From the NCBI RefSeq assembly GCF_057098645.1, contig NZ_CM169472.1: 64,000 nucleotides of DNA, one strand, 5' to 3'. A program made the translations under genes and the position numbers. The notes under the pieces are model-generated. The model was not told the DNA's origin and searched no databases. It was given only the letters and a program-made list of their open reading frames with translations. The stretch's first letter is position 1; each line of letters opens with the position of its first letter. Shown here in pieces: positions 9,813 through 23,186 of the stretch.

Positions 9813-10322
9813 ATGATGACGCTGATTATTCCGCGAAAGGAGGCTCCCGTGTCCGGTGAGGGTACGGTGGTCATCCCGCAACCGGCAGGCGACGAGCCGG
9901 TGATTAAAAACACGTTCTTTTTTCCCGATATCGACCCGAAGCGCGTCCGGGAACGTATGCGCCTTGAGCAGACCGTCGCCCCCGCCCGTCTGCGTGAGGC
10001 CATCAAGTCAGGCATGGCGGAGACAAATGCGGAGCTGTACGAGTACCGCGAACAGAAAATTGCCGCCGGTTTTACGCGTCTGGCGGACGTCCCGGCGGAC
10101 GATATCGACGGTGAAAGCATCAAAGTTTTTTACTACGAGCGCGCCGTGTGTGCGATGGCGACCGCGTCGCTTTATGAGCGTTATCGCGGCGTGGATGCCA
10201 GTGCGAAAGGTGACAAGAAGGCTGACAGCATTGACAGCACCATTGATGAGCTGTGGCGGGATATGCGCTGGGCGGTGGCGCGTATCCAGGACAAACCGCG
10301 CTGCATCGTGAGTCAAATCTGA
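9813..10322 (+). CDS. L: head completion/stabilisation protein (P2 gpL-like)
   Basis: ORF track 9753..10322; start trimmed to MMTLIIP giving 169 aa; stop overlaps X start (ATGA). Confidence 0.88.
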   Translation: MMTLIIPRKEAPVSGEGTVVIPQPAGDEPVIKNTFFFPDIDPKRVRERMRLEQTVAPARLREAIKSGMAETNAELYEYREQKIAAGFTRLADVPADDIDGESIKVFYYERAVCAMATASLYERYRGVDASAKGDKKADSIDSTIDELWRDMRWAVARIQDKPRCIVSQI

Positions 10323-10528: not shown

Positions 10529-10810
10529 ATGACAGCAGAAGAAAAAAGCGTCCTGTCGCTTTTCATGATTGGGGTGCTGATTGTTGTCGGCAAGGTGCTT
10601 GCCGGTGGTGAACCCATCACCCCGCGTCTGTTTATCGGGCGCATGTTGCTCGGTGGTTTTGTCTCGATGGTTGCCGGTGTTGTTCTGGTGCAGTTTCCTG
10701 ACCTGTCACTGCCTGCGGTGTGCGGCATCGGCTCCATGCTGGGTATCGCCGGTTATCAGGTGATTGAGATTGCCATTCAGCGCCGCTTTAAGGGCAGGGG
10801 GAAACAGTAA
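10529..10810 (+). CDS. Y: holin (P2 gpY-like)
   Basis: 93-aa ORF with hydrophobic helices, immediately upstream of the lysozyme gene. Confidence 0.85.
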   Translation: MTAEEKSVLSLFMIGVLIVVGKVLAGGEPITPRLFIGRMLLGGFVSMVAGVVLVQFPDLSLPAVCGIGSMLGIAGYQVIEIAIQRRFKGRGKQ

Positions 10811-11733
10811 TGCCGGTAATTAACACGCATCAGAATATCGCCGCCTTTCTCGACATGCTGGCGGTGTCCGAAGGGACGGCAAATCATCCGCTGACGAAAA
10901 ACCGGGGCTATGACGTGATAGTCACCGGACTGGACGGGAAGCCGGAAATCTTCACCGACTACAGTGACCACCCGTTCGCGCATGGCCGACCGGCGAAGGT
11001 GTTTAACCGTCGCGGTGAAAAGTCCACGGCCTCCGGTCGCTATCAGCAGCTTTACCTGTTCTGGCCGCACTACCGCAAACAGCTTGCCCTGCCGGATTTC
11101 AGTCCGTTGTCACAGGACAGACTCGCCATTCAGTTGATCCGCGAACGCGGTGCACTGGATGACATCCGGGCGGGACGCATTGAGCGCGCCATTTCACGCT
11201 GTCGCAATATCTGGGCGTCCCTGCCGGGTGCCGGTTACGGTCAGCGTGAGCATTCACTGGAAAAACTGGTCACCGTCTGGCGTACCGGCTTAAACGGAGT
11301 AAACACCATGAAGAAATTATCCCTTTCACTGATGCTGAATGTGTCGCTGGCGCTGATGCTGGCACTGTCACTGATTTACCCGCAGAGCGTGGCCGTCAGT
11401 TTTGTCGCTGCCTGGGCGATTCTGGCGACGGTTATCTGTGTGGTTGCCGGTGGTGTCGGCGTGTATGCCACTGAGTATGTACTTGAGCGCTACGGACGGG
11501 AGCTGCCGCCGGAATCGCTGGCCGTGAAGATTGTCACGTCGCTGTTTTTGCAGCCGGTGCCGTGGTGCAGACGGGCGGCGGGTCTGGTGGTGATGGTGGC
11601 GACGTTTATCTCGCTGGTCGCTGCCGGGTGGATTTTTACTGCACTGATTTATCTCGTGGCGTCGCTGTTTTTCCGGCTGATACGTAAAGCCTGTCGTCAG
11701 CGTTTTGAGGGGCGGGAACTATGTCAAAGCTGA
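10810..11733 (+). CDS. K: endolysin (P2 K-like lysozyme) reading through in frame into a LysA-like membrane domain (307 aa)
   Basis: N-terminal ~165 aa look like P2 K lysozyme; no stop codon before the LysA-like MKKLSLSLMLNV... segment in the same frame. Confidence 0.7.
   Translation: MPVINTHQNIAAFLDMLAVSEGTANHPLTKNRGYDVIVTGLDGKPEIFTDYSDHPFAHGRPAKVFNRRGEKSTASGRYQQLYLFWPHYRKQLALPDFSPLSQDRLAIQLIRERGALDDIRAGRIERAISRCRNIWASLPGAGYGQREHSLEKLVTVWRTGLNGVNTMKKLSLSLMLNVSLALMLALSLIYPQSVAVSFVAAWAILATVICVVAGGVGVYATEYVLERYGRELPPESLAVKIVTSLFLQPVPWCRRAAGLVVMVATFISLVAAGWIFTALIYLVASLFFRLIRKACRQRFEGRELCQS
11308..11733 (+). CDS. lysA: LysA-like membrane protein (possible internal in-frame start within the K reading frame)
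   Basis: ATG at 11308 in frame gives 141 aa, the length I recall for P2 LysA; hydrophobic segments. Confidence 0.5.
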   Translation: MKKLSLSLMLNVSLALMLALSLIYPQSVAVSFVAAWAILATVICVVAGGVGVYATEYVLERYGRELPPESLAVKIVTSLFLQPVPWCRRAAGLVVMVATFISLVAAGWIFTALIYLVASLFFRLIRKACRQRFEGRELCQS

Positions 11734-12146
11734 TGATTGTGCTGGTCGTGTTGTTATCGCTGGCGGTGGCGGGGCTGTTTCTGGCGAAGCATGAAAACGC
11801 CAGCCTGCGCGCCTCGCTGGACAGGGTGAACAACGTCGCCAGTGAACAGCAGACGACCATCACCATGCTGAAAAATCAGCTTCATGTTGCCATCACCAGG
11901 GCAGACAAAAACGAGCTGGCGCAGGTGGCACTGCGTCAGGAACTGGAGAACGCCGCGAAGCGTGAAGCACAGCGCGAGAAAACCATCACGAGGTTACTTA
12001 ATGAAAACGAAGATTTTCGCCGCTGGTATGGCGCTGACCTGCCTGATGCTGTGCGCCGGTTGCACCAGCGTCCGGCCTGCACCGACGCCAGTGATTGTCG
12101 CCAACGCCTGCCCGAAAGTGAGCCTTTGCCCGATGCCGGGCAGTGA
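11721..12146 (+). CDS. lysB: LysB, Rz-like i-spanin
   Basis: 141-aa ORF with N-terminal TM helix and coiled-coil; synteny. Confidence 0.8.
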   Translation: MSKLMIVLVVLLSLAVAGLFLAKHENASLRASLDRVNNVASEQQTTITMLKNQLHVAITRADKNELAQVALRQELENAAKREAQREKTITRLLNENEDFRRWYGADLPDAVRRLHQRPACTDASDCRQRLPESEPLPDAGQ

Positions 12147-12291
12147 CCCGCAGACGAACGGCGATTTAAGTGCCGATATCCGGCAGCTTGAGAACGCGCT
12201 GGCACGCTGTGCCAGCCAGGTAAAAATGATTAAACACTGTCAGGACGAAAACGATGCTCAAACCCGACAGCCTGCGCAGGGCACTGACTGA
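12001..12291 (+). CDS. lysC: LysC, Rz1-like o-spanin lipoprotein embedded in lysB in another frame
   Basis: MKTKIFAAGMALTCLMLCAGC lipobox signal; start trimmed from ORF-track 11884; Pro-rich. Confidence 0.75.
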   Translation: MKTKIFAAGMALTCLMLCAGCTSVRPAPTPVIVANACPKVSLCPMPGSDPQTNGDLSADIRQLENALARCASQVKMIKHCQDENDAQTRQPAQGTD

Positions 12292-12721
12292 TGCCGTCAC
12301 GGTGCTGAAAACCAGCCCCGAGATGCTGCGGATATTCGTGGATAACGGGAGTATTGCCTCCACACTGGCGACGTCACTGTCATTCGAAAAGCGTTACACG
12401 CTCAATGTCATTGTGACCGATTTTACCGATGATTTTGACCTGCTCATCGTGCCGGTGCTGGCGTGGCTGCGGGAAAATCAGCCCGACATCATGACCACCG
12501 ACGAAGGTCAGAAAAAGGGCTTCACGTTTTATGCAGACATCAACAATGACAGCAGCTTTGATATCAGCATCAGCCTGATGCTGACCGAGCGCACGCTGGT
12601 CAGTGAGGTGGACGGCGCACTGCATGTGAAGAATATCCCGGAACCCCCGCCGCCGGAGCCGGTCACCCGCCCGATGGAGCTGTATATCAATGGCGAACTG
12701 GTGAGCAAGTGGGATGAATGA
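12254..12721 (+). CDS. R: tail completion protein (P2 gpR-like)
   Basis: 155-aa ORF, same length as P2 R; synteny. Confidence 0.88.
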   Translation: MLKPDSLRRALTDAVTVLKTSPEMLRIFVDNGSIASTLATSLSFEKRYTLNVIVTDFTDDFDLLIVPVLAWLRENQPDIMTTDEGQKKGFTFYADINNDSSFDISISLMLTERTLVSEVDGALHVKNIPEPPPPEPVTRPMELYINGELVSKWDE

Positions 12722-13163
12722 GTTTAAGCGTTTTGAAGACCGGCTGACCGGAATGATTGAGTCGCTGTCACCGTCAGGGCGTCGGCGACTGGCGGTAGAT
12801 ATTGCGAAGAAACTGCGCCAGCGCCAGCAGCAGCGAATTAAATTACAAAAAGGCCCGGATGGTACGCCGTATGTACCGAGAAAAAACCAACCAGTGCGAA
12901 ATAAGAAAGGCCGGATAAAGCGGGAAATGTTTGTGAAATTACGCACTAACCGGTTTATGAAAGCAACAGCTAGCGAGAGTGCGGCGGTGGTGGAGTTTAC
13001 TGGTAAGGTTGAGTGTATTGCGAGAGTACATCAATTTGGGTTGGCTGATAAGCCTAGTTACAACAGTAAGGCTGTGGTTTATCCTGTTCGTATACTTATG
13101 GGAATCTCAGAGCGTGATACGAAATTTGTTGAAGAAGTTATTATTCGCTACCTATCTCATTAG
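12714..13163 (+). CDS. S: tail completion protein (P2 gpS-like); 3' two-thirds is AT-rich and looks mosaic
   Basis: 149-aa ORF starting MNEFKRFEDRLTG; synteny; composition shift near 12830. Confidence 0.85.
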   Translation: MNEFKRFEDRLTGMIESLSPSGRRRLAVDIAKKLRQRQQQRIKLQKGPDGTPYVPRKNQPVRNKKGRIKREMFVKLRTNRFMKATASESAAVVEFTGKVECIARVHQFGLADKPSYNSKAVVYPVRILMGISERDTKFVEEVIIRYLSH

Positions 13164-13213
13164 GGACGATGAAAATATAGTTTCATCAGCTATATTCTAG
13201 TATATAAAATACT

Positions 13214-13238
13214 AAGGCTACACTAGCCGTGTAGCCTT
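13214..13238. terminator. bidirectional intrinsic terminator between convergent S and the cargo NTPase gene
   Basis: perfect 10-bp stem AAGGCTACAC / GTGTAGCCTT with 5-nt loop, flanked by A/T-rich runs on both sides. Confidence 0.6.
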
Positions 13239-13263
13239 AGTATATGTTTGGGATATTATATAA

Positions 13264-14508
13264 CTAAATCCAGCGAAGGTAGAATAGTAAGTAAGGATCT
13301 CTGATGTCTAATACATCGCTTTCTTGATCCCACTCGATAATACTGCTATTTGCAGCATCGTTGGCAATAGCAGTTGAGTGCTGACATGCACTGGTTATAC
13401 TAGAACCGCTTGGGCTATCGCCATGACATAACGAGGTCACTCGAGATACTAAGTCAGAATAACGAAATGTCAGCGTCGGAGGATTAGAAGCAATGGCTTT
13501 TAATAAAAAGACATAAACATCGCCTTGCCAGCCATCTTTTGATATATATGATTTTCTATCAGAACCACGCACTTTAGGTCCTTCGCGCATTTTATCCACA
13601 ATCGTGCTGTAATCTGCTGACTGAAGTGTACGTTTGCACACTCTTTGCAATGTGGCAATATCTTTTTGATATTTTATTGAAGTATCAGAAGTCTCTCTGA
13701 CATTCATTTCAAAACAAGAGTTTAAGCATAAATATTGCATTAGTTGTGGTGAGCCTGCGGACTCTTTTACTAACTCACTTATAACTTCATCAGAGGCATC
13801 TATATTGAGTAGTTTGAATCCTTTCTGAGCAATAATTTTTAAGGTTGATTCATCCCAATAATCAAAATCAATATTAAATATCCGGCCTCGTAAGTCAGAG
13901 TTACCCCGAAGAACATCATCAGAATGATATGGCACTGATGCACAAATAAATTTGCAGCCATTAGCTATGGCATCTTTTATTTGTCGTGATAGTTCGGCTT
14001 GAGCTTCTTTAGCAATATAGTGAAAATCATCGATAAAGATAACATAATCTGTGTTTGCGATTTCTCGCTTCATTAGTTGAAAGAGATCTATCGCAAATGA
14101 TTCTGAGGTTTGATCTGCTGTACTATAACCAGCGGATGCAGACCCTTTAAGACTACCTTTTGCTAAAATTACACCAGCTTGGGCAGATAATTCTCCTGTA
14201 CTTGAAAATGATGAGGTGCCAGTTTTACTTTGAACTTGGGTTACTGGTACACCAAGTATGTCGAAAACGCGCTTCCATAAATCATTAGCAGATTGAACCC
14301 CTGCTCCAGTTACTTCGATTAGCCTCTGGGTTCCAAGTACTTTCTTAACAAAGACAGTTTTTCCTGATTTTGATGGGCCAGAGATAGAAATCAGCATGGT
14401 GCCCATCTCAAGTGTATCGATTAACTGTTGCTGTTTAGATACTAGGTGATCCTCAACCAGTGTGTGGTTGGGATAACCGCCTGGGATAAAAACCTCTGTC
14501 GCCTTCAT
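13264..14508 (-). CDS. hypothetical P-loop NTPase; AT-rich cargo gene between S and V; candidate anti-phage defence ATPase
   Basis: 414-aa ORF; Walker A GPSKSGKT (aa 44-51, nt 14356..14379); Walker B YVIFIDD (aa 155-161); Ser/Thr/Gly-rich insert between them; opposite strand and lower GC than the phage backbone. Confidence 0.8.
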   Translation of the reverse strand: MKATEVFIPGGYPNHTLVEDHLVSKQQQLIDTLEMGTMLISISGPSKSGKTVFVKKVLGTQRLIEVTGAGVQSANDLWKRVFDILGVPVTQVQSKTGTSSFSSTGELSAQAGVILAKGSLKGSASAGYSTADQTSESFAIDLFQLMKREIANTDYVIFIDDFHYIAKEAQAELSRQIKDAIANGCKFICASVPYHSDDVLRGNSDLRGRIFNIDFDYWDESTLKIIAQKGFKLLNIDASDEVISELVKESAGSPQLMQYLCLNSCFEMNVRETSDTSIKYQKDIATLQRVCKRTLQSADYSTIVDKMREGPKVRGSDRKSYISKDGWQGDVYVFLLKAIASNPPTLTFRYSDLVSRVTSLCHGDSPSGSSITSACQHSTAIANDAANSSIIEWDQESDVLDIRDPYLLFYLRWI

Positions 14509-14549
14509 ATATCAACGCCAACATTATTAATGGTATGCCAATTTTACGT

Positions 14550-14567
14550 TGTAAGAGGATCAATACA
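14550..14567. promoter_or_regulatory. TGT-N12-ACA dyad upstream of V (Ogr/Delta-type late activator site candidate)
   Basis: TGTAAGAGGATCAATACA in the divergent region between the cargo gene and V; spacing to the V start is shorter than expected, so tentative. Confidence 0.3.
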
Positions 14568-14614
14568 AGTTCCATTTATTGCCTGTGAGTGCTGAAAAAT
14601 TCAATATTTGAAAA

Positions 14615-15250
14615 ATGAATATAAATCACTCATTACAAGAGCTTGCGCGTGCACTGCGCAACATGATCCGCACCGGTATTATCGTCGAAACCGACCTTAA
14701 CGCCGGTCGCTGCCGTGTGCAGACCGGCGGCATGTGCACCGACTGGCTTCAGTGGCTGACCCATCGTGCCGGACGTTCGCGCACATGGTGGGCACCTTCC
14801 GTGGGGGAACAGGTGCTGATTCTGGCTGTGGGCGGTGAACTCGACACGGCGTTCGTTCTGCCGGGGATTTATTCCGGCGATAACCCCGCGCCGTCTGCGT
14901 CGGCGGATGCCCTGCATATCCGTTTCCCTGACGGGGCGGTGATTGAGTATGAACCCGAAACCAGTTCACTGACGGTAAGCGGAATTAAAACGGCCAGCGT
15001 GACGGCTTCTGATTTTGTTACTGCCACGGTGCCGGTGGTCACGGTGAAAGCATCAACCCGCGTCACCCTGGACACACCGGAGGTGGTCTGCACCAACAGG
15101 CTGATTACCGGCACGCTGGAAGTGCAGAAGGGCGGGACGATGCGCGGCAACATTGAACACACCGGCGGTGAACTCTCATCAAACGGTAAGGTACTGCATA
15201 CCCATAAACACCCCGGCGACAGTGGCGGCACAACAGGGGGACCTCTATGA
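14615..15250 (+). CDS. V: baseplate spike (P2 gpV-like)
   Basis: 211-aa ORF, same length as P2 V; synteny. Confidence 0.92.
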   Translation: MNINHSLQELARALRNMIRTGIIVETDLNAGRCRVQTGGMCTDWLQWLTHRAGRSRTWWAPSVGEQVLILAVGGELDTAFVLPGIYSGDNPAPSASADALHIRFPDGAVIEYEPETSSLTVSGIKTASVTASDFVTATVPVVTVKASTRVTLDTPEVVCTNRLITGTLEVQKGGTMRGNIEHTGGELSSNGKVLHTHKHPGDSGGTTGGPL

Positions 15251-15594
15251 CAGCGCGTTATCTCGGAATGAATCGCAGTGATGGCCTGACTGTCACTGAC
15301 CTTGAGCATATCAGCCAGAGTATCGGCGATATCCTGCGCACACCGGTCGGCTCACGGGTGATGCGTCGTGATTACGGCTCGTTGCTGGCGTCAATGATTG
15401 ACCAGCCGCAGACCCCGGCGCTTGAGTTGCAGATTAAAGTCGCCTGTTACATGGCAGTGCTGAAATGGGAACCCCGCGTCACCCTGTCATCCGTCACCAC
15501 GGCGCGCAGTTTTGACGGGCGAATGACGGTCACGTTAACCGGCCAGCACAACGACACCGGCCAGCCACTTTCGTTAACCATCCCTGTGAGTTGA
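15247..15594 (+). CDS. W: baseplate wedge protein (P2 gpW-like)
   Basis: 115-aa ORF; synteny. Confidence 0.9.
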   Translation: MTARYLGMNRSDGLTVTDLEHISQSIGDILRTPVGSRVMRRDYGSLLASMIDQPQTPALELQIKVACYMAVLKWEPRVTLSSVTTARSFDGRMTVTLTGQHNDTGQPLSLTIPVS

Positions 15595-15598
15595 AACC

Positions 15599-16507
15599 AT
15601 GCCGATTATCGACCTGAACCAGCTACCCGCACCGGATGTGGTCGAGGAGCTGGACTTTGAAACCATTCTTGCCGAACGCAAGGCGACACTGATTTCCCTT
15701 TACCCGGAAGACCAGCAGGAGGCGGTCGCCCGTACCCTGACACTGGAATCTGAGCCTCTCGTCAAACTGCTGGAGGAAAATGCTTATCGTGAGCTTATCT
15801 GGCGTCAGCGTGTGAATGAGGCTGCACGGGCGGTGATGCTGGCCTGTGCAGCCGGTAATGACCTTGATGTGATTGGTGCCAATTACAACACCACACGCCT
15901 GATTATCACCCCGGCAGATGATTCAACCATCCCGCCGACACCGGCCGTGATGGAATCTGACACCGATTATCGTCTGCGTATTCAGCAGGCGTTTGAAGGT
16001 TTAAGCGTCGCCGGGTCGGTGGGGGCCTATCAGTATCATGGTCGAAGTGCCGACGGGCGTGTCGCAGATATCTCTGTCACCAGTCCTTCTCCGGCCTGCG
16101 TCACCATCTCTGTGCTGTCACGTGAAAATAACGGTGTGGCATCCGAAGACCTGCTGGCGGTGGTGCGCAACGCCCTTAATGGTGAGGACGTCAGACCGGT
16201 GGCCGACCGTGTGACCGTGCAGTCTGCCGTCATCGTTGAATACCAGATAAATGCCACGCTTTACCTTTACCCTGGCCCCGAAAGCGAACCCATTCGCGCT
16301 GCCGCCGTGAAAAAACTGGAAGCGTATATCACGGCACAGCACCGGCTGGGGCGCGACATCCGACTGTCTGCCATTTATGCCGCTTTGCATGTGGAAGGCG
16401 TGCAGCGTGTCGAACTGGCTGCACCGCTGGCCGACATCGTGCTCAACAATACGCAGGCGTCTTTCTGTACCGAATACAGCGTCGTGACCGGAGGCTCGGA
16501 TGAGTGA
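15599..16507 (+). CDS. J: baseplate protein (P2 gpJ-like)
   Basis: 302-aa ORF; synteny. Confidence 0.9.
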   Translation: MPIIDLNQLPAPDVVEELDFETILAERKATLISLYPEDQQEAVARTLTLESEPLVKLLEENAYRELIWRQRVNEAARAVMLACAAGNDLDVIGANYNTTRLIITPADDSTIPPTPAVMESDTDYRLRIQQAFEGLSVAGSVGAYQYHGRSADGRVADISVTSPSPACVTISVLSRENNGVASEDLLAVVRNALNGEDVRPVADRVTVQSAVIVEYQINATLYLYPGPESEPIRAAAVKKLEAYITAQHRLGRDIRLSAIYAALHVEGVQRVELAAPLADIVLNNTQASFCTEYSVVTGGSDE

Positions 16508-18390: not shown

Positions 18391-18945
18391 ATGAACTCAG
18401 TATTCTTTTCACCCGGAAGTAAAAGTTTTTATCTGCAAGAATTGTTTCCAGAATATGAGGATGCGGGAACGCTTCCTGATGATGTTATTGAAATTACCCG
18501 AGAAACATATGAGCAATTTCTTGGGCTGCATCCAGAAGGGAAAGAAATTGGCGCTGACAGTTCAGGACGGCCAATATGGATTAATTCCCCGCCGCCTTCA
18601 AAAGAGGATGAGGTGCTGGCGGCTGAAATGAAAAAAATATCTTTGGTTTCAGAAGTCAATACCTACATCAATACCCATCAGTGGCCTGGCAAAGCTGCTA
18701 TTGGTCGTCTGAAAGGTGACGAGCTGGAACAATATAATTTATGGCTGGATTATCTGGACGCACTGGAACTGGTTGATACCTCCAGTGCTCCAGATTGCGT
18801 ATTCCGCTCTATTCGATCACGGATTGGCATCGAAGTCCGATCAGCGATTCGCATCCATTCGATCAACCGGGAACTTAACTTTTTCTACCGCTTTTTAACG
18901 CGTTTTTTCGCTGCTTTCCACTACCGGGGGATTTTTCCTCAGTGA
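18391..18945 (+). CDS. G: tail fibre assembly protein (gpG-like) with C-terminus replaced by IS-derived sequence
   Basis: 184-aa ORF; native sequence ends at ...DTSSAPD (nt ~18795), then reads into the IS21-family element. Confidence 0.7.
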   Translation: MNSVFFSPGSKSFYLQELFPEYEDAGTLPDDVIEITRETYEQFLGLHPEGKEIGADSSGRPIWINSPPPSKEDEVLAAEMKKISLVSEVNTYINTHQWPGKAAIGRLKGDELEQYNLWLDYLDALELVDTSSAPDCVFRSIRSRIGIEVRSAIRIHSINRELNFFYRFLTRFFAAFHYRGIFPQ

Positions 18946-19650
18946 CTCTCCCTGAAGGACCACTCGGTGTGAGTTATGTACCAGTCTGTCCAGGATGGCA
19001 TCTGCTGTTGTTGGGTTCTCCATCAGACCATGCCATTTATCTACCGGGAACTGGCTTACCACTATCGTGCTGCTTTGTCCGTAACGATCCTCTATGAGCT
19101 CCAGAAGGTCATTACACTGGGCGTTACTTAACTGTTCCAGCCCCAGATCGTCCAGGATTAGAACCTGTATTTTTTGCAACTGTTTCAGATATTTCAGCCA
19201 GCTGCCATCAACACGTCCCTGAGCCAGTTGTTCCAGTAATCGCCCGGTTCTACAGTACCGGACGCTGTGTTTCTGTCGACATGCCTGTTCGCCCAGCGCA
19301 TTGGCTATCCAGCTCTTGCCACATCCTGTCGGACCGGTTATCAGCAGGTTTTTCCTGTGGGTTATGTAGTGGCCGTTCAGCAGTTCTCTCATCTGTTCAG
19401 CCCGCAGACCTCTTGAGGCCGGATAGCGCAGCCCTTCCGGTGTTGCCTGGTATTTCAGGCCGGCATTTTTTCTCAACCGTGCCACACGGCTGTTTTCCCT
19501 GCTCAGAAGCTCGTCATCAACCAGCAGCGTCAGCCTTTCCTCGAACGACAGTTCGTCGTAGGTCTGAGGCGTTTCCCGCTGCCGTATCAGGCTCCCGGCC
19601 ATCGCCGGGAGTTTCAGTTGGGTCAGTTTGTTTAACAGGTTATCACTCAT
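18895..19650 (-). CDS. istB: IS21-family helper ATPase IstB
   Basis: Walker A GPTGCGKS, Walker B VLILDDLG; start trimmed to MSDNLLNKL within ORF-track 18895..19893. Confidence 0.9.
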   Translation of the reverse strand: MSDNLLNKLTQLKLPAMAGSLIRQRETPQTYDELSFEERLTLLVDDELLSRENSRVARLRKNAGLKYQATPEGLRYPASRGLRAEQMRELLNGHYITHRKNLLITGPTGCGKSWIANALGEQACRQKHSVRYCRTGRLLEQLAQGRVDGSWLKYLKQLQKIQVLILDDLGLEQLSNAQCNDLLELIEDRYGQSSTIVVSQFPVDKWHGLMENPTTADAILDRLVHNSHRVVLQGESLRKNPPVVESSEKTR

Positions 19651-19666
19651 ACTGTTGTTCCTTCTG

Positions 19667-21202
19667 TCAGTGGTAGTAGCCCGGACCACGCAGGTTTTCA
19701 TGCTCTGAAGCATATGCCGGATGTTGTTCGCCCTGGCGGGATAATGGAAGCTCCAGGTTCTCCCGATGGTGACGCAGCAGATTGTCGATAAAGCGTCTGT
19801 CAGGGGCGTTATAGTGCAGGGCAACGTAACAGGCCTTTTCCAGCCGTTCCGGGCCGTATTTTTTCTGAAGTGCCAGCAGCCCCAGAACTGCACGATAAGC
19901 CAGTTCCGGATGGGGTTTTGCCTTCAGCATGGATTCAACCACCCGGCCTGTGGACGGGCCCGTACGTTTTCCCTGCTCGATCAGGCGTTCCGGTGTCCAT
20001 GTCCCGTGCTGCCGGTGGCGCTCTGGCATGTGAAGCGGATTGGTTGTGTGTTTATATTCATGTGTGCTGCGCGGATGTTGCGCCACACACTGCCCCTTGT
20101 GCCAGAGCTGTACCACCGACTGCCCCGCCTTCAGTGACAGACGCTGACCGACCAGTTCGTGTGGAACGGAGTACCAGTGACGGGCATATTCAACGTGGTA
20201 GTCAGGGCCAACCTTCACAGCTTTGTATTCCGTGTATTCATAAGGTGCCAGAGGCAGCGGAGAGAGTGCTGGCGCATCCAGTATGCGGAAGCGTTCTGCA
20301 CGGGTTTGATTGCCGTACCCCTTCATTGGCCGGTTATTCATGTCTGTCAGTAACTCCCTAAGGCGCGCATTCAGCGCCCTGAGCGTGTGGAAGGTTTCAT
20401 TACGGATGCGGGCAAGAAGCCATCGTTCAACGATGAGGACGCCGTTTTCTGCTTTTGGTTTATCTTTAGGTTTGCGTGGTCGGGCCGGGATGATAACCGT
20501 GCCATAGTGCTCAGCCAGTGCCTGATAACTGTCGTTGATGACAGGCTCATATCGATCGGCCTTTTTCACTGCGCTTCTGAGGTTATCGGGGATGAGCAGC
20601 TTCGGTACGCCGCCCAGGAAGGTCAGGCAACGGCTGTGGGCATTTAACCATGACATCATGTCCTGACCTTCGCACGCTTCAACGTAGGTATAGTTGGACG
20701 CCCCCATTACGGCCACGAAGATTGCCACGCGGCGTATCTCACCGGTGTCCGGATTAATAACAGGAACCGTAGGACCACAGAAGTCGATAAAAAGCTTTTC
20801 GCCGGCACGATGCTCCTGGCGCATGGAGAGACGTCGCGTTTTTTTCCACTCCCGGTAGCAACGGCAGAAGTGCGAGTATCCCATCGCTTTGTTACCCGCC
20901 TGTGCCTTGTATTCCATCCACAACAGTTGCCGCGTCACACCTGGTTTTCTCATTTCCGTATCGAAGTACAACATGTCAGGCATTACAAGCTCTGATGCAA
21001 AGGTGTCTTTGGGCGGAAAAATGAGTTTCTCCAGCGTGTCATGGGATATATCAGCAGGTAATGGCCATGACAGAGAAGAGGCTTTGAAGCGGGCAAGAAC
21101 CTCAAAAACGGTTGAGGCGCTGATGTGTAACGTCAGTCCGATACAACGGTTAGTCAGCTTCTTGTCGAACTTGAGCTGAAGGATCTTAAAACAGGTTTCC
21201 AT
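19667..21202 (-). CDS. istA: IS21-family transposase IstA
   Basis: N-terminal HTH then DDE-type core; start trimmed to METCFKIL within ORF-track 19667..21313 (track start is a TTG). Confidence 0.88.
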   Translation of the reverse strand: METCFKILQLKFDKKLTNRCIGLTLHISASTVFEVLARFKASSLSWPLPADISHDTLEKLIFPPKDTFASELVMPDMLYFDTEMRKPGVTRQLLWMEYKAQAGNKAMGYSHFCRCYREWKKTRRLSMRQEHRAGEKLFIDFCGPTVPVINPDTGEIRRVAIFVAVMGASNYTYVEACEGQDMMSWLNAHSRCLTFLGGVPKLLIPDNLRSAVKKADRYEPVINDSYQALAEHYGTVIIPARPRKPKDKPKAENGVLIVERWLLARIRNETFHTLRALNARLRELLTDMNNRPMKGYGNQTRAERFRILDAPALSPLPLAPYEYTEYKAVKVGPDYHVEYARHWYSVPHELVGQRLSLKAGQSVVQLWHKGQCVAQHPRSTHEYKHTTNPLHMPERHRQHGTWTPERLIEQGKRTGPSTGRVVESMLKAKPHPELAYRAVLGLLALQKKYGPERLEKACYVALHYNAPDRRFIDNLLRHHRENLELPLSRQGEQHPAYASEHENLRGPGYYH

Positions 21203-21299
21203 AGTGCTCCTGGATTTTCTCTTTCTGGACATTGACGTCTCCACTGGTTTAAACACGGCAATGGAGACTGTGGTGAAAAGAGTTAATTCCCGGAGTGAC

Positions 21300-21434
21300 T
21301 GGCAGGATGCCAATCAATGATCGGAAGCATGCCAAATCGTGATCGATTGTGATGCCAAACTGTGATCGGAGATGGATGCCAAATCATGATCGATTCGAAT
21401 GCCAAACTGCGATCGATTCAGATGCCATTTTGCA
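21300..21434. repeat. tandem ~20-bp terminal repeats of the IS21-family element (transposase binding sites)
   Basis: five to six copies of GATGCCAAA(C/T)NGTGATCGAT-like units; similar units inverted at the other end (18796..18880). Confidence 0.7.
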
Positions 21435-21450
21435 CCAGATATTGAATGGC

Positions 21451-22056
21451 CTACGCCTCCGGTAGTTCAGGCCAGATGACATCCGGCGCGGTGCTGATAT
21501 CTGTTGCAGTCACCGCGTCAATGTAATCCAGCACAGCGTTAAGCCGGGTTGTTTCTGCCTGCGTCAGCTTCCGCCCGGCCTGCAATTTCAGCTGAATCAG
21601 ACTAATGGAAGCCATAGCCGCATCAATCAGTGACTGGCGCCGTACTTCTGCCGCGTCTACTGCGGCGTTATGCTGTGCCTCAGTGTCGGTCACCCATTTC
21701 TCACCATCCCATTTATCGTATGACGTTAACGGGGCGATAGTGGTTGTATTTTCAGGGTAATCACCCGGAACTGTGATTTCTTTTGATTCTCCTGTTTCGG
21801 TGCTATAGACGATTTCACCGCGATGGTCTGGCACATATTCCCATGAGTTAAAATCTGCAGAACGGCAAATTGCATAACCAGCTTTATATGAGCCAGGAGC
21901 ATCTAAACAGGAACATGCCGGGATACCGACACCCACAGCAAGATATTCAGTTGATGTGGAAATATATTCCCGTGTTTCACCATCATAATTATAAACGGTA
22001 ATGTCTCCGGCCTTTGTGGCGATGAGTTCATTATTTAATACAGCTTTACTTATCAT
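21451..22056 (-). CDS. tail fibre assembly protein, alternative copy in the invertible segment
   Basis: 201-aa ORF ending ...APDVIWPELPEA; directly downstream of the alternative fibre C-terminal cassette. Confidence 0.85.
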   Translation of the reverse strand: MISKAVLNNELIATKAGDITVYNYDGETREYISTSTEYLAVGVGIPACSCLDAPGSYKAGYAICRSADFNSWEYVPDHRGEIVYSTETGESKEITVPGDYPENTTTIAPLTSYDKWDGEKWVTDTEAQHNAAVDAAEVRRQSLIDAAMASISLIQLKLQAGRKLTQAETTRLNAVLDYIDAVTATDISTAPDVIWPELPEA

Positions 22057-22565
22057 GCAGCCCTCACAATATAATTAAAGGCGATGTTACGGGAGCGGGT
22101 TTCAGATGCTGTGCGAACTGAGCGAGATGCGTCGAATGTCCAGTTATAAGCGCCATAACCCTCAATAATTTCGGCTTCCTTTAGACCTGTAGATAATACT
22201 TGCCCATGTTGACTAAATGGCCCTGAACTAAGTACGTCTCTAAAAAGCTGGGTACGCCCAAAAGAACCAACAATATTCTGAATTGCATCATTCTGTGCAG
22301 ATAATAAGTTACGACCAGAGTCAATCCCGCGCCCATCATCCCAGCCACGAATAAATTCACCGCGTAAATCTGGTAATTTTAATGTTGGGTAAGCCTTTGC
22401 CAGATTTGGGTACTTTTCAGAAGAAAATACTGCTCCGTTACATTTTAGCCACCCCATTGGCGGAGTGGCTGAAGGCCACGGAACAGGCACACCAACCGGT
22501 AATGCAGAGCCTTCTCCCAAACCAACGTTTAAGAAAATGCAGAGATTATGTCTAACTGGCATCAT
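22053..22565 (-). CDS. alternative tail fibre C-terminal cassette (promoterless; expressed only after inversion fuses it to H)
   Basis: ORF contains the same NVGLGE junction motif as H at the crossover site; lies between the right crossover site and the alternative assembly gene. Confidence 0.75.
   Translation of the reverse strand: MMPVRHNLCIFLNVGLGEGSALPVGVPVPWPSATPPMGWLKCNGAVFSSEKYPNLAKAYPTLKLPDLRGEFIRGWDDGRGIDSGRNLLSAQNDAIQNIVGSFGRTQLFRDVLSSGPFSQHGQVLSTGLKEAEIIEGYGAYNWTFDASRSVRTASETRSRNIAFNYIVRAA
22512..22537. other. site-specific recombination (crossover) site of a Gin/Hin-family invertase, right copy
   Basis: TTCTCCCAAACC-AA-CGTTTAAGAAAA fits the TTnTCnnAAACC-nn-GGTTTnnGAnAA consensus with one mismatch; adjacent to the invertase gene. 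Confidence 0.65.
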
Positions 22566-22592
22566 CTCCGGTTTTTATTCAGGGGGATGCTC

Positions 22593-23186
22593 ATGCTTAT
22601 TGGCTATGTACGCGTGTCAACAAATGACCAGAACACGGAATTGCAGCGTAATGCGCTGGAGTGCGCAGGATGTGAGCTGATTTTTGAGGACAAAATCAGC
22701 GGCACGAAGTCCGACAGGCCGGGGCTGAAAAAACTGCTCAGAACATTATCGGAAGGTGACACTCTGGTTGTCTGGAAGCTGGACAGGCTGGGGCGTAGTA
22801 TGCGGCATCTGGTCATTCTGGTTGAGGAACTGCGCGAACGCGGCGTTAATTTTCGCAGCCTGACGGATGCTATTGATACCAGCACGCCGATGGGGCGTTT
22901 TTTCTTTCATGTGATGGGTGCCCTGGCTGAAATGGAGCGAGAACTCATTGTCGAGCGGACACGCGCCGGACTGGAAGCGGCCAGAGCCAAAGGTCGTATT
23001 GGTGGCAGACGACCGAAACTCACCGCGAGTGAGTGGGAGCAGGCCGGGCGTTTGCTGGCTGCAGGGGAGTCACGTCAACGCGTGGCACTGATTTTTGATA
23101 TTGGTCTGTCCACGCTCTATAAAAAATTTCCCTCATCAGCGACAAAGAATAAATTGTGTCATCCCTTAGCCAACCGGGACAAATAG
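22593..23186 (+). CDS. serine DNA invertase (Gin/Hin/Cin/Pin family)
   Basis: MLIGYVRVSTNDQ catalytic-serine N-terminus and C-terminal HTH; start trimmed from ORF-track 22548. Confidence 0.9.
   Translation: MLIGYVRVSTNDQNTELQRNALECAGCELIFEDKISGTKSDRPGLKKLLRTLSEGDTLVVWKLDRLGRSMRHLVILVEELRERGVNFRSLTDAIDTSTPMGRFFFHVMGALAEMERELIVERTRAGLEAARAKGRIGGRRPKLTASEWEQAGRLLAAGESRQRVALIFDIGLSTLYKKFPSSATKNKLCHPLANRDK

What the first reader, a model, noticed from the sequence alone, without database searches (positions are those of the whole stretch)
12830..13263. Mosaic junction: AT-rich 3' part of gene S next to the cargo NTPase gene
The first third of S has phage-typical GC-rich codons, but from about 12830 the gene becomes AT-rich, ending ...VYPVRILMGISERDTKFVEEVIIRYLSH. 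This suggests the S C-terminus was replaced together with the adjacent cargo by recombination. A perfect 10-bp hairpin at 13214..13238 flanked by A/T runs could terminate both convergent transcripts.
Basis: seen in the sequence. Interest (0 to 1): 0.3.

Follow-up and report, generated by a model that had tools for sequence, protein, structure and literature searches.

The report
Swapped gene-end beside phage cargo cassette
In a P2-like prophage, most of the essential tail gene S was replaced together with the neighbouring AT-rich cargo gene, its terminator, the next promoter and the first ten codons of gene V, as one recombination cassette. This is an ordinary kind of phage mosaicism, seen here unusually clearly.

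Summary
GC falls inside gene S: the best change point is 12836, from 0.56 to 0.42. Third-codon-position GC (GC3) falls from 0.72 in R to 0.30 in the S tail, the same as the cargo (0.29).

Similarity to P2 S is not uniform. It is 100% up to 12791 and about 45-70% after that. A second, nested breakpoint against R18C-type phages lies at about 12998.

The hairpin is real but longer than reported: a 15-bp perfect stem at 13209-13243.

- In 5,426 complete E. coli genomes, the same 11 carry both the S tail and the cargo.
- Among carriers, the flanks differ by 3-4% but 12792-14644 differs by only 0.05-0.5%.
- The right edge behaves the same way. The cassette brings its own PV promoter and V codons 1-10.
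- Across 79 P2-like loci the S-V site holds 26 cargo types. S tails differ between near-identical backbones only when the cargo differs.

This is the known P2 orf30 accessory-gene site. The cargo is a Cdc6/Orc1-like AAA+ ATPase related to the untested PADLOC candidate PDC-S59.

Two points stay open: no donor phage was found, and terminator function is untested. Interest is modest.

The parts
12254..12721 (+). Gene R (tail completion / tail terminator). This is backbone, 97% aa identical to P2 R.
   Evidence: Pfam P2_Phage_GpR, E 1.6e-44. tblastn identities.
12714..13163 (+). Gene S (tail completion / virion morphogenesis protein, 149 aa). An intact ORF that is chimeric.
   Evidence: Pfam Phage_tail_S E 1.2e-33, profile positions 2-147 of 148. 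TIGR01635 tail_comp_S E 6e-38. Alignment to P2, L-413C and R18C S.
12714..12791 (+). S codons 1-26, the backbone part. Identical to P2-type S. GC 0.54, GC3 0.58.
   Evidence: In 33 of 40 evenly spaced E. coli hits, the match to the window ends at 12791 or 12794.
12792..12998 (+). S codons 27-95, the outer (older) replaced layer. About 100% identical to R18C-type phages and to L011, which carry other cargo. 73-75% identical to 186-type S and about 45-70% to P2 S. GC 0.49, GC3 0.51.
12999..13163 (+). S codons 96-149 plus the stop codon, the inner layer. This tail is specific to the cassette. GC 0.395, GC3 0.30. It occurs only together with this cargo.
   Evidence: same 11 genomes.. Nearest tails elsewhere are at most 55-60% aa identical.
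13209..13243 (.). Perfect 15-bp stem with a 5-nt loop between the convergent genes S and cargo. Candidate bidirectional intrinsic terminator.
   Evidence: P2 has an annotated putative terminator at the same position, with an unrelated sequence.
13264..14508 (-). Cargo gene: a 414-aa P-loop AAA+ ATPase with a Cdc6/Orc1-like fold. GC 0.39.
   Evidence: PADLOC PDC-S59 E 2.8e-31. Weak AAA_22 and ATPase_2 matches. AF2 model pLDDT 79.5. Foldseek top hits are Cdc6 1fnn (E 3e-10), ORC, PABY2304, RFC and RuvB.
14509..14614 (+). Cassette-specific version of the late promoter PV. It has a TGT-N12-ACA activator-site motif at 14550-14567, centred about 56 nt before the V start codon. The cargo's own promoter presumably lies in the same spacer on the - strand.
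   Evidence: Read from the sequence. Alignment with P2, L-413C, R18C and L011 shows that only GTTGT...ACA is conserved. P2 annotates an activator binding site 10239-10266 before V at 10308.
14615..14644 (+). V codons 1-10 (MNINHSLQEL, against P2 MNTLANIQEL). This is the cassette-derived, AT-rich start of the baseplate spike gene. GC 0.27.
14645..15250 (+). Rest of gene V. Backbone, GC 0.60.
   Evidence: Pfam Phage_base_V and Phage_spike..
12536..14766 (.). Tract that is almost free of polymorphism among carriers of the cassette. Its ends lie at 12429-12753 on the left and 14683-14767 on the right, depending on the carrier. It marks the most recent exchanges, with crossovers in conserved R/S 5' and V 5' sequence.
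   Evidence: Mismatch lists and densities.

Best explanation
The finding is the left junction of an exchangeable cassette of about 1.85 kb (12792 to about 14644). The cassette occupies the S-V accessory-gene site of a P2-like (Peduovirus) prophage. This is the site where phage P2 carries orf30.

From left to right the cassette contains:
- the 3' four-fifths of the essential tail-completion gene S, in a diverged but homologous and AT-rich version;
- a strong hairpin that probably terminates both the late O-operon transcript (...R-S) and the convergent cargo transcript;
- a Cdc6/Orc1-like AAA+ ATPase gene on the opposite strand;
- its own copy of the Ogr-type late promoter PV;
- the first ten codons of V.

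Shown: the whole block is inherited as a unit, and it sits in backbones that are otherwise 3-4% apart.

Inferred: the block moves between P2-like phages by homologous recombination, with crossovers in the conserved 5' part of S (or in R) and in V. The ends of the two flanking essential genes are therefore carried along from the donor. Repeated events with different crossover points produced the nested breakpoints at 12791/12792 and about 12998, and hence the stepwise fall in GC. The chimeric S is expected to work because the replaced part is a true S homologue.
For: Anatomy and comparison with P2:
- Searches give the gene order R, S, hairpin, antisense cargo, PV, V. P2 has the same order with orf30 as cargo.

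Breakpoints and composition:
- Window S is identical to P2 through nt 78 and to R18C through about nt 285.
- GC3 of the S tail (0.30) equals that of the cargo (0.29) and of V codons 1-10 (0.30). The backbone is 0.66-0.72.

Linkage:
- The same 11 of 5,426 E. coli genomes hold the S tail and the cargo, and never one without the other.
- In six carriers, mismatches are 3.1-4.0% in the flanks and 0.05-0.5% in 12792-14644.

Generality:
- 79 usable P2-like loci give 26 cargo clusters.
- Among pairs with at least 93% identical R, the S tail is under 70% identical in 0 of 166 both-empty pairs and 0 of 70 same-cargo pairs. It is under 70% in 69% of 206 different-cargo pairs.
- The 70 nt upstream of V, and in 30% of different-cargo pairs V codons 1-10, behave the same way.
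- The S tail has GC below 0.50 in 26 of 50 occupied loci and in 0 of 25 empty loci.
- Cargo C3 occurs with either a canonical or a divergent S tail. P2 orf30 and the Serratia homologue of this cargo have canonical tails. The left crossover point is therefore variable, as passive hitch-hiking predicts.

Other support:
- No transposase, integrase or flanking repeats lie in or around the cassette.
- R18C carries the same chimeric S codons 27-95 and is described in its paper's title as a viable phage (PMC6823313).
Against: No donor phage was found.
- The nearest S tails among 1.84 billion representative proteins and 50,697 phage records are at most 55-60% aa identical, and they sit next to unrelated cargo.
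- No P2-like phage with an AT-rich backbone turned up among the loci fetched, and none was searched for specifically.

Among phages carrying 73-78% identical homologues of this cargo at the same site, the S tails are more diverged (DNA identity 0.50-0.61) than the cargo (0.69-0.72). Part of the tail's divergence therefore reflects weak constraint on that part of S. Tail pN is 0.22-0.39 against 0.07-0.19 for the head.

The pair statistics use non-independent pairs from a sample chosen by similarity to this S.

Terminator and promoter functions are read from sequence only. Two single-sided substitutions occur in the hairpin among carriers, and none is compensatory.
Confidence: 0.8

Rival explanations
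1. In-place divergence. The last 50 or so codons of S are simply a weakly constrained, fast-evolving region. Next to a non-recombining, AT-rich insert they drift towards AT. Possible causes are AT-biased mutation, or the loss of GC-biased gene conversion where no homologous partner exists. On this view the link with the cargo is physical linkage, not import from a donor.
For: - The tail evolves faster than the head: pN 0.22-0.39 against 0.07-0.19.
- Both-empty pairs on distant backbones have tails 0.59 identical and heads 0.72 identical.
- Tails are more diverged than the cargo among cargo-homologue loci.
- No donor phage or AT-rich backbone was seen among the loci fetched, though none was searched for specifically.
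Against: - Identity to P2-type S drops abruptly at a single position, from 100% to about 70% at 12791/12792. The backbones are otherwise 96-97% identical.
- Tail identity between near-identical backbones sits near 0.9-1.0 for both-empty and same-cargo pairs (never below 0.83) and at a median 0.53 for different-cargo pairs.
- Several cargo types, and the Serratia homologue of this one, sit next to GC-rich canonical tails. An adjacent AT-rich insert does not by itself erode the tail.
- The replaced part includes codons 27-95 at intermediate GC, shared 100% with phages that carry other cargo.
Confidence: 0.12
2. Functional coupling. The S tail allele and the cargo are co-adapted. For example, the cargo ATPase might sense or act on the S protein or S DNA of competing P2-like phages, and the resident phage would then carry a matched, insensitive S tail. 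Selection, rather than crossover position, would keep them together.
For: - Perfect linkage in E. coli.
- S tails track cargo across backbones.
- The cargo family stays at this one site in several P2-like lineages.
- The cargo is related to a candidate defence family.
Against: - Homologues of this cargo sit next to quite different tails. One is a canonical GC-rich tail in Serratia.
- Cargo C3 and P2 orf30 occur with canonical tails.
- The V side shows the same hitch-hiking, which a coupling specific to S does not predict.
- The tails closest to this one accompany unrelated cargo.
- More distant homologues of the cargo live outside phages altogether.
Confidence: 0.05
3. Insertion by a mobile element or by site-specific recombination into the 3' end of S. 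The element would bring a replacement coding end that restores an S-like C-terminus.
For: The site is hit repeatedly: 26 cargo types. The boundaries are sharp.
Against: - There is no recombinase or transposase gene in the cassette.
- No terminal inverted repeats or target duplications flank it. The only strong inverted repeat is the hairpin.
- The replaced S segment is homologous to S over its whole length. The Pfam and TIGRFAM profiles are matched end to end.
- The left boundary differs from case to case.
Confidence: 0.03

Closest known systems
Phage P2 S-orf30-V region (NC_001895). The orf30 position is one of three regions of P2-like phages said to hold horizontally acquired genes (PMC3091744).
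   Same: - Same place between S and V.
- Same layout: S, a strong hairpin annotated as a putative rho-independent terminator of the O operon, an AT-rich non-essential ORF on the opposite strand, the activator binding site of PV, then V.
- Insert GC is 0.35-0.36 in P2 and 0.38 here.
   Different: The cargo is unrelated, and the hairpin and PV promoter sequences are unrelated. In P2 the insert begins downstream of a canonical, GC-rich S tail. Here the replaced block reaches back to S codon 27 and forward into V codon 10.
Bacteriophage R18C (MN016939) and R18C-type prophages
   Same: P2-type backbone. S is identical to the window's through codon 95 or so, including the same 12791/12792 breakpoint against P2. 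It also has an AT-rich S tail and cargo at the S-V site. The R18C paper notes a 741-bp ORF in place of orf30 (PMC6823313).
   Different: Beyond about 12998 the S tail differs (45% aa identity). The cargo is a different gene on the same strand as S, and the PV region differs.
Accessory-gene ('moron') and defence hotspots of P2-like phages and P4 satellites (Rousset et al. 2022, PMC9122126; Moura de Sousa et al. 2026 preprint, 10.64898/2026.02.27.708500; Egorov et al. 2024 preprint, 10.1101/2024.10.15.618418)
   Same: AT-rich, rapidly swapped cargo at fixed positions between conserved core genes. Near-identical phages carry unrelated cargo. Homologous recombination in the flanks has been proposed as part of the mechanism.
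   Different: Those papers centre on the hotspot next to cos (old/tin), the Z/fun hotspot and a few others. In the parts I read they do not describe the S-V site in detail or cargo-linked ends of S and V. The 2026 preprint reports almost no linkage between defence genes and whole core genes (Spearman 0.2 or less). Here linkage is tight but confined to the cargo-proximal part of S.
PADLOC candidate PDC-S59, and Cdc6/Orc1-type AAA+ ATPases (Pfam ATPase_2 / AAA_22)
   Same: HMM match E 2.8e-31 over residues 37-296. Walker A GPSKSGKT and Walker B FIDDF are invariant in the family. The predicted fold is closest to Cdc6/Orc1, PABY2304, RFC and RuvB.
   Different: Only the ATPase core matches the PDC-S59 profile. 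The C-terminal 120 residues are not covered. No paper in the searchable library mentions PDC-S59, so no function is established. There is no sequence-level match to any solved structure.

Membership tests
P2 gpS / Phage_tail_S (PF05069, TIGR01635) tail completion protein | Full-length match to the family profile above the curated cut-off | tested here: met
   PF05069: 116.5 bits (cut-off 24.3), profile positions 2-147 of 148. TIGR01635: 130.1 bits (cut-off 37.65), positions 2-144 of 144. The AT-rich tail is covered too.
P2 gpS / Phage_tail_S (PF05069, TIGR01635) tail completion protein | Position in the late operon directly after R, overlapping its end, and before V | tested here: met
   R is 12254-12721 and S is 12714-13163, an 8-nt overlap as in P2.
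P2 gpS / Phage_tail_S (PF05069, TIGR01635) tail completion protein | Supports tail completion (essential function) | not testable with these tools
   Indirect evidence only. The ORF is intact. pN is below pS in tails of related cassettes. R18C, with the same chimeric codons 27-95, is reported viable.
P2 orf30-site (S-V) horizontally acquired cargo | Lies between the S stop codon and the PV activator site / V start | tested here: met
   Cargo at 13264-14508, TGT-N12-ACA at 14550-14567, V at 14615.
P2 orf30-site (S-V) horizontally acquired cargo | Base composition unlike the phage backbone | tested here: met
   GC 0.39 and GC3 0.29, against backbone 0.57 and 0.66-0.72.
P2 orf30-site (S-V) horizontally acquired cargo | Content varies among closely related phages, including empty sites | tested here: met
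   The gap ranges from 66 bp to 3.5 kb, with 26 cargo clusters in 79 loci. Only 11 of about 1,565 E. coli genomes with a P2-like S carry this cargo.
Intrinsic (rho-independent) terminator, bidirectional | Stable stem-loop with G+C pairs directly after the stop codons of convergent genes | tested here: met
   15-bp perfect stem with 6 G-C pairs, dG -24 to -27 kcal/mol, z -4.8 and -5.8. It lies 46 nt after the S stop and 20 nt after the cargo stop.
Intrinsic (rho-independent) terminator, bidirectional | U-rich tract immediately 3' of the stem on each strand | tested here: inconclusive
   The - strand has UUUAUAUACU and was called by the scan. The + strand has AUGUUUGGGA and was not called. A shorter stem would leave U-rich tails on both strands.
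Intrinsic (rho-independent) terminator, bidirectional | Transcripts end there | not testable with these tools
   No transcript data. Hairpins with unrelated sequences sit at the same place in P2 and in four of five other loci with homologous cargo (L089, L090, L094, L101). The L089 hairpin is a weak one, and L092 has none.
PADLOC PDC-S59 candidate defence protein | Match to the PDC-S59 profile over most of its length | tested here: inconclusive
   E 2.8e-31, but only profile positions 37-292 of 428 and protein residues 37-296 of 414 are matched.
PADLOC PDC-S59 candidate defence protein | Protects against phage infection | not testable with these tools
Context is suggestive only: a prophage accessory site, and retention of an intact copy in a decayed prophage.
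Transposon or integrative-element insertion | Own recombinase, plus terminal repeats or target-site duplication | tested here: not met
   There is a single cargo ORF with no recombinase domain. No flanking direct or inverted repeats were found.

The most novel reading that the evidence does not exclude
The cargo-proximal end of S may be more than a passenger. S-tail alleles and S-V cargo could be co-selected pairs. For instance, cargo proteins such as this AAA+ ATPase might discriminate resident from incoming P2-like phages through the S tail, as protein or as DNA. If so, an essential virion gene would carry an 'immunity allele' matched to the neighbouring defence gene. A weaker version is that the AT-rich S and V ends are maintained as portable homology arms, which let cassettes cross between distant P2-like lineages.
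Probability: 0.06. Interest if true: 0.65.

Novelty: new member of a known kind. Interest (0 to 1): 0.3.

Why it matters
This is a clean, quantified example of how accessory or defence cargo moves between temperate phages. The exchanged unit is not the cargo gene alone. It is a block that also brings the ends of the two flanking essential genes, a terminator and a late promoter.

Three practical consequences follow:
- Hotspot catalogues that delimit cargo by 'core genes' will place the boundaries of this site about 370 bp too far to the right on the S side.
- Phylogenies or typing schemes that use S will be confounded by the cargo. The S tail is about 35% aa identical between phages that are otherwise 96-97% identical.
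- S tolerates very large changes in its C-terminal third. That is useful for anyone studying tail completion proteins.

The finding does not reveal a new kind of system.

Tried and rejected
Searches for a donor of the S tail:
- The word-indexed protein search with the 54-aa tail returned nothing, because no candidate passed the word filter.
- The exhaustive HMMER search of 1.84 billion representatives gave 41 hits. None was above 55% identity, and the top hit was a low-complexity artefact.
- A tblastn search of 50,697 phage records gave at best 60%, to the canonical Klebsiella/186-type tail.
- The nearest tails sit next to unrelated cargo. I dropped the idea that tail similarity tracks cargo at long range.

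Tests of co-transfer between distant backbones:
- I compared the same cargo families (C1, C2, C3, C7) across distant backbones. Everything is about 70% identical and synonymous sites are saturated, so these pairs are uninformative.

Other checks:
- The Rfam scan of 12200-15000 found nothing credible.
- My window scan for the PV motif used the wrong spacing (GTTGT-N9-11-ACA) and missed the site. I read the motif TGT-N12-ACA at 14550-14567 directly from the sequence and from the alignment.
- A transposon-type insertion is rejected: no repeats and no recombinase.
- A profile search of PDB sequences for the cargo found nothing. Only the fold comparison gave an assignment.
- A literature search for PDC-S59 found nothing.

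Full report
**What is there.** The window holds a P2-like (Peduovirus) prophage. Around the finding the order is:
- R, 12254-12721, + strand
- S, 12714-13163, + strand
- a hairpin, 13209-13243
- a 414-aa ORF, 13264-14508, - strand
- a 106-bp spacer
- V, 14615-15250, + strand

Phage P2 itself has the same layout: S, an annotated putative rho-independent terminator of the O operon, the non-essential AT-rich orf30 on the opposite strand, the activator binding site of PV, then V.

**Check of the observation.** The fall in GC is real. GC in 200-nt windows goes from 0.59 to 0.35 between 12600 and 13300, and recovers at 14600-14900. A likelihood scan of R+S puts the change point at 12836 (0.56 to 0.42; 1 of 500 permutations reaches this). 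GC3 steps down as follows: R 0.72, S codons 1-26 0.58, codons 27-95 0.51, codons 96-149 0.30. The last value equals the cargo (0.29) and V codons 1-10 (0.30). The rest of V is 0.66.

Similarity to P2 S is not uniform. The DNA is identical through nt 78 of S (12791) and then 40-73% identical. Megablast against 76 P2-like phage records covers only R, the S 5' end and V.

The hairpin is a perfect 15-bp stem with a 5-nt loop. Predicted dG is -26.9 and -24.2 kcal/mol on the two strands, with z = -4.8 and -5.8.

**Two nested breakpoints.** Against P2, L-413C and most E. coli prophages, homology stops at 12791-12794. This is the case in 33 of 40 evenly spaced rows. Against R18C-type phages and locus L011, identity stays at about 100% to about 12998 and then falls to about 50%. 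These phages carry other cargo. The segment 12792-12998 is 73-75% identical to S of 186-type phages. S is therefore a three-part chimera, which explains the stepwise composition.

**The S tail and the cargo travel together.** In 5,426 complete E. coli genomes, 1,565 match the R/S 5' end. The S tail with its spacer (12999-13263) and the cargo (13264-14614) were searched separately, and each is found in exactly the same 11 genomes.

Six carriers were aligned to the window. They differ by 3.1-4.0% in the flanks (11000-12428 and 14768-16500) but by only 0.05-0.5% in 12792-14644. The low-polymorphism tract ends at 12429-12753 on the left and 14683-14767 on the right. The block has therefore been placed into diverged backbones, or the backbones have been exchanged around it. 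The crossovers lie in conserved R/S 5' and V sequence.

**The right edge mirrors the left.** The 106-bp spacer before V is unrelated to that of P2, L-413C or R18C, except for GTTGT...ACA. This is the TGT-N12-ACA motif at 14550-14567, at the same distance from the V start as the annotated P2 activator site. V codons 1-10 are a diverged AT-rich version (MNINHSLQEL against MNTLANIQEL).

**Generality.** A scan of IMG/VR with an S alignment gave 80 loci. Together with the four phage-record loci fetched earlier and the window, 79 were usable. The S-V gap ranges from 66 bp (empty and GC-rich) to 3.5 kb. Occupied sites fall into 26 cargo clusters with GC 0.32-0.42.

For pairs whose R genes are at least 93% identical, I asked how often the S tail (codons 111 to the end) is under 70% identical:
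- both sites empty: 0 of 166 pairs
- same cargo: 0 of 70 pairs
- different cargo: 69% of 206 pairs (median identity 0.53)

The 70 nt before V behave alike (68% of different-cargo pairs under 0.7). So do V codons 1-10 in 30% of different-cargo pairs. S-tail GC is below 0.50 in 26 of 50 occupied loci (12 of 26 clusters) and in 0 of 25 empty loci.

The left boundary varies. Cargo C3 occurs with both a canonical and a divergent tail. P2 orf30 and many 186-type cargos sit behind canonical tails. The pairs are not independent, and the sample was chosen by similarity to this S, so the counts are descriptive.

**Cargo.** The protein has an invariant Walker A (GPSKSGKT) and Walker B (FIDDF). It matches AAA_22, AAA_16 and ATPase_2 weakly. 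It matches the PADLOC candidate PDC-S59 over the ATPase core (E 2.8e-31). An AlphaFold model (pLDDT 79.5) is closest to Cdc6/Orc1, the archaeal ATPase PABY2304, RFC and RuvB.

Homologues at 71-78% identity sit at the same S-V site, convergent with S, in other P2-like backbones including a Serratia prophage. A 62% homologue survives intact in a decayed P2 remnant in a metagenome contig (the protein is named Pantoea septica by NCBI). Homologues at 57-59% lie in non-phage chromosomal sites in Aeromonas and in marine bacteria. The function is unknown. A defence role is a guess from context.

**Mechanism.** The best-supported reading is cassette exchange by homologous recombination between P2-like phages, with crossovers inside the conserved parts of S (or R) and V. 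The cargo-proximal ends of both essential genes, the terminator and the PV promoter then hitch-hike with the cargo.
- Shown: the block structure, the linkage, the nested breakpoints, the symmetric edges, and the absence of transposon features.
- Inferred: the recombination pathway, terminator and promoter activity, and functionality of the chimeric S. For the last point, support comes from the end-to-end profile matches, pN below pS in tails of related cassettes, and the reported viability of R18C.

**What remains unexplained.** No donor was found. The closest tails anywhere are at most 55-60% identical and accompany unrelated cargo. No P2-like phage with an AT-rich backbone appeared among the loci fetched, though I ran no search aimed at such phages. 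Among phages with homologous cargo, the tails are more diverged than the cargo, and the tail is under weaker constraint than the head. Some in-place divergence or AT drift of cassette-linked tails may therefore add to import. The Serratia locus has homologous cargo behind a GC-rich canonical tail. This shows that AT-rich tails are not required by this cargo, which argues against functional coupling.

**Comparison with the literature.** The orf30 position is named as one of three regions of P2-like phages that hold horizontally acquired genes (PMC3091744). The R18C paper notes a different ORF there. Recent hotspot studies centre on other P2 sites, and one reports little linkage between defence genes and whole core genes. 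The sub-genic linkage of the S tail, the PV promoter and the V start to the cargo was not described in what I read. It is, however, what the standard model of phage mosaicism predicts.

**Verdict.** This is a new cassette at a known accessory site, not a new kind of system. Interest is modest (0.3).

Noticed in passing
window 18391-23186: The tail-fibre assembly gene (18391-18945, Caudo_TAP) has its 3' end replaced by an IS21-family element on the minus strand: istB at 18895-19893 and istA at 19667-21313. An 18-nt inverted repeat at 18814-18831 / 21306-21323 probably marks its ends. Beyond it lie an alternative fibre C-terminus (22053-22565), an alternative assembly gene (21451-22056) and a serine DNA invertase (22548-23186). 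Together these form an invertible host-range segment interrupted by an IS.
   Followed up: partly
window 10810-11733 (deletion at about 11283/11284): Relative to the five carriers shown in the alignment, the window lacks 14 bp between two short direct repeats (GGCGTACCG) at the end of the endolysin gene K. This removes the K stop codon and fuses K in frame to lysA, giving a 307-aa ORF. Together with the IS21 insertion, it suggests that this copy of the prophage is decaying.
   Followed up: partly
L002 about 1440-1470, and the equivalent 40 nt before V in L001, L011, L044, L024, L033: Most P2-like loci, empty or occupied, share a GC-rich hairpin between the PV activator site and the V start codon (ATTGCCGCCGG...CCGGCGGCATCC). 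The window's cassette and P2 itself lack it and have unrelated AT-rich leaders. Its role is unknown; it could be the O-operon terminator at empty sites, or a 5'-UTR element.
   Followed up: no
L102 1612-5178 (metagenome contig; the protein is named Pantoea septica by NCBI): A 62% homologue of the cargo is intact inside a decayed P2-like remnant. S is split into two ORFs, and V and J are truncated, next to trmD/rplS. Retention of the cargo while the phage decays fits a benefit to the host.
   Followed up: no
L104/L105/L106 2004-2906: In marine chromosomal loci, a 57% homologue of the cargo is preceded 95 bp upstream, on the same strand, by a 300-aa protein with no Pfam match and a Cys-rich C-terminus. 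This could be a partner gene that is absent from the phage versions. The 301-aa ORF near the Aeromonas homologue is unrelated.
   Followed up: no
window 14509-14614, - strand: The cargo's presumed promoter must lie in the same 106-bp spacer as PV and would overlap the activator site. A weak TTGTAT-16 nt-TAAAAT match is visible by eye on the minus strand, but it fell below the scan's threshold. Divergent regulation of the cargo and the V operon was not examined.
   Followed up: no
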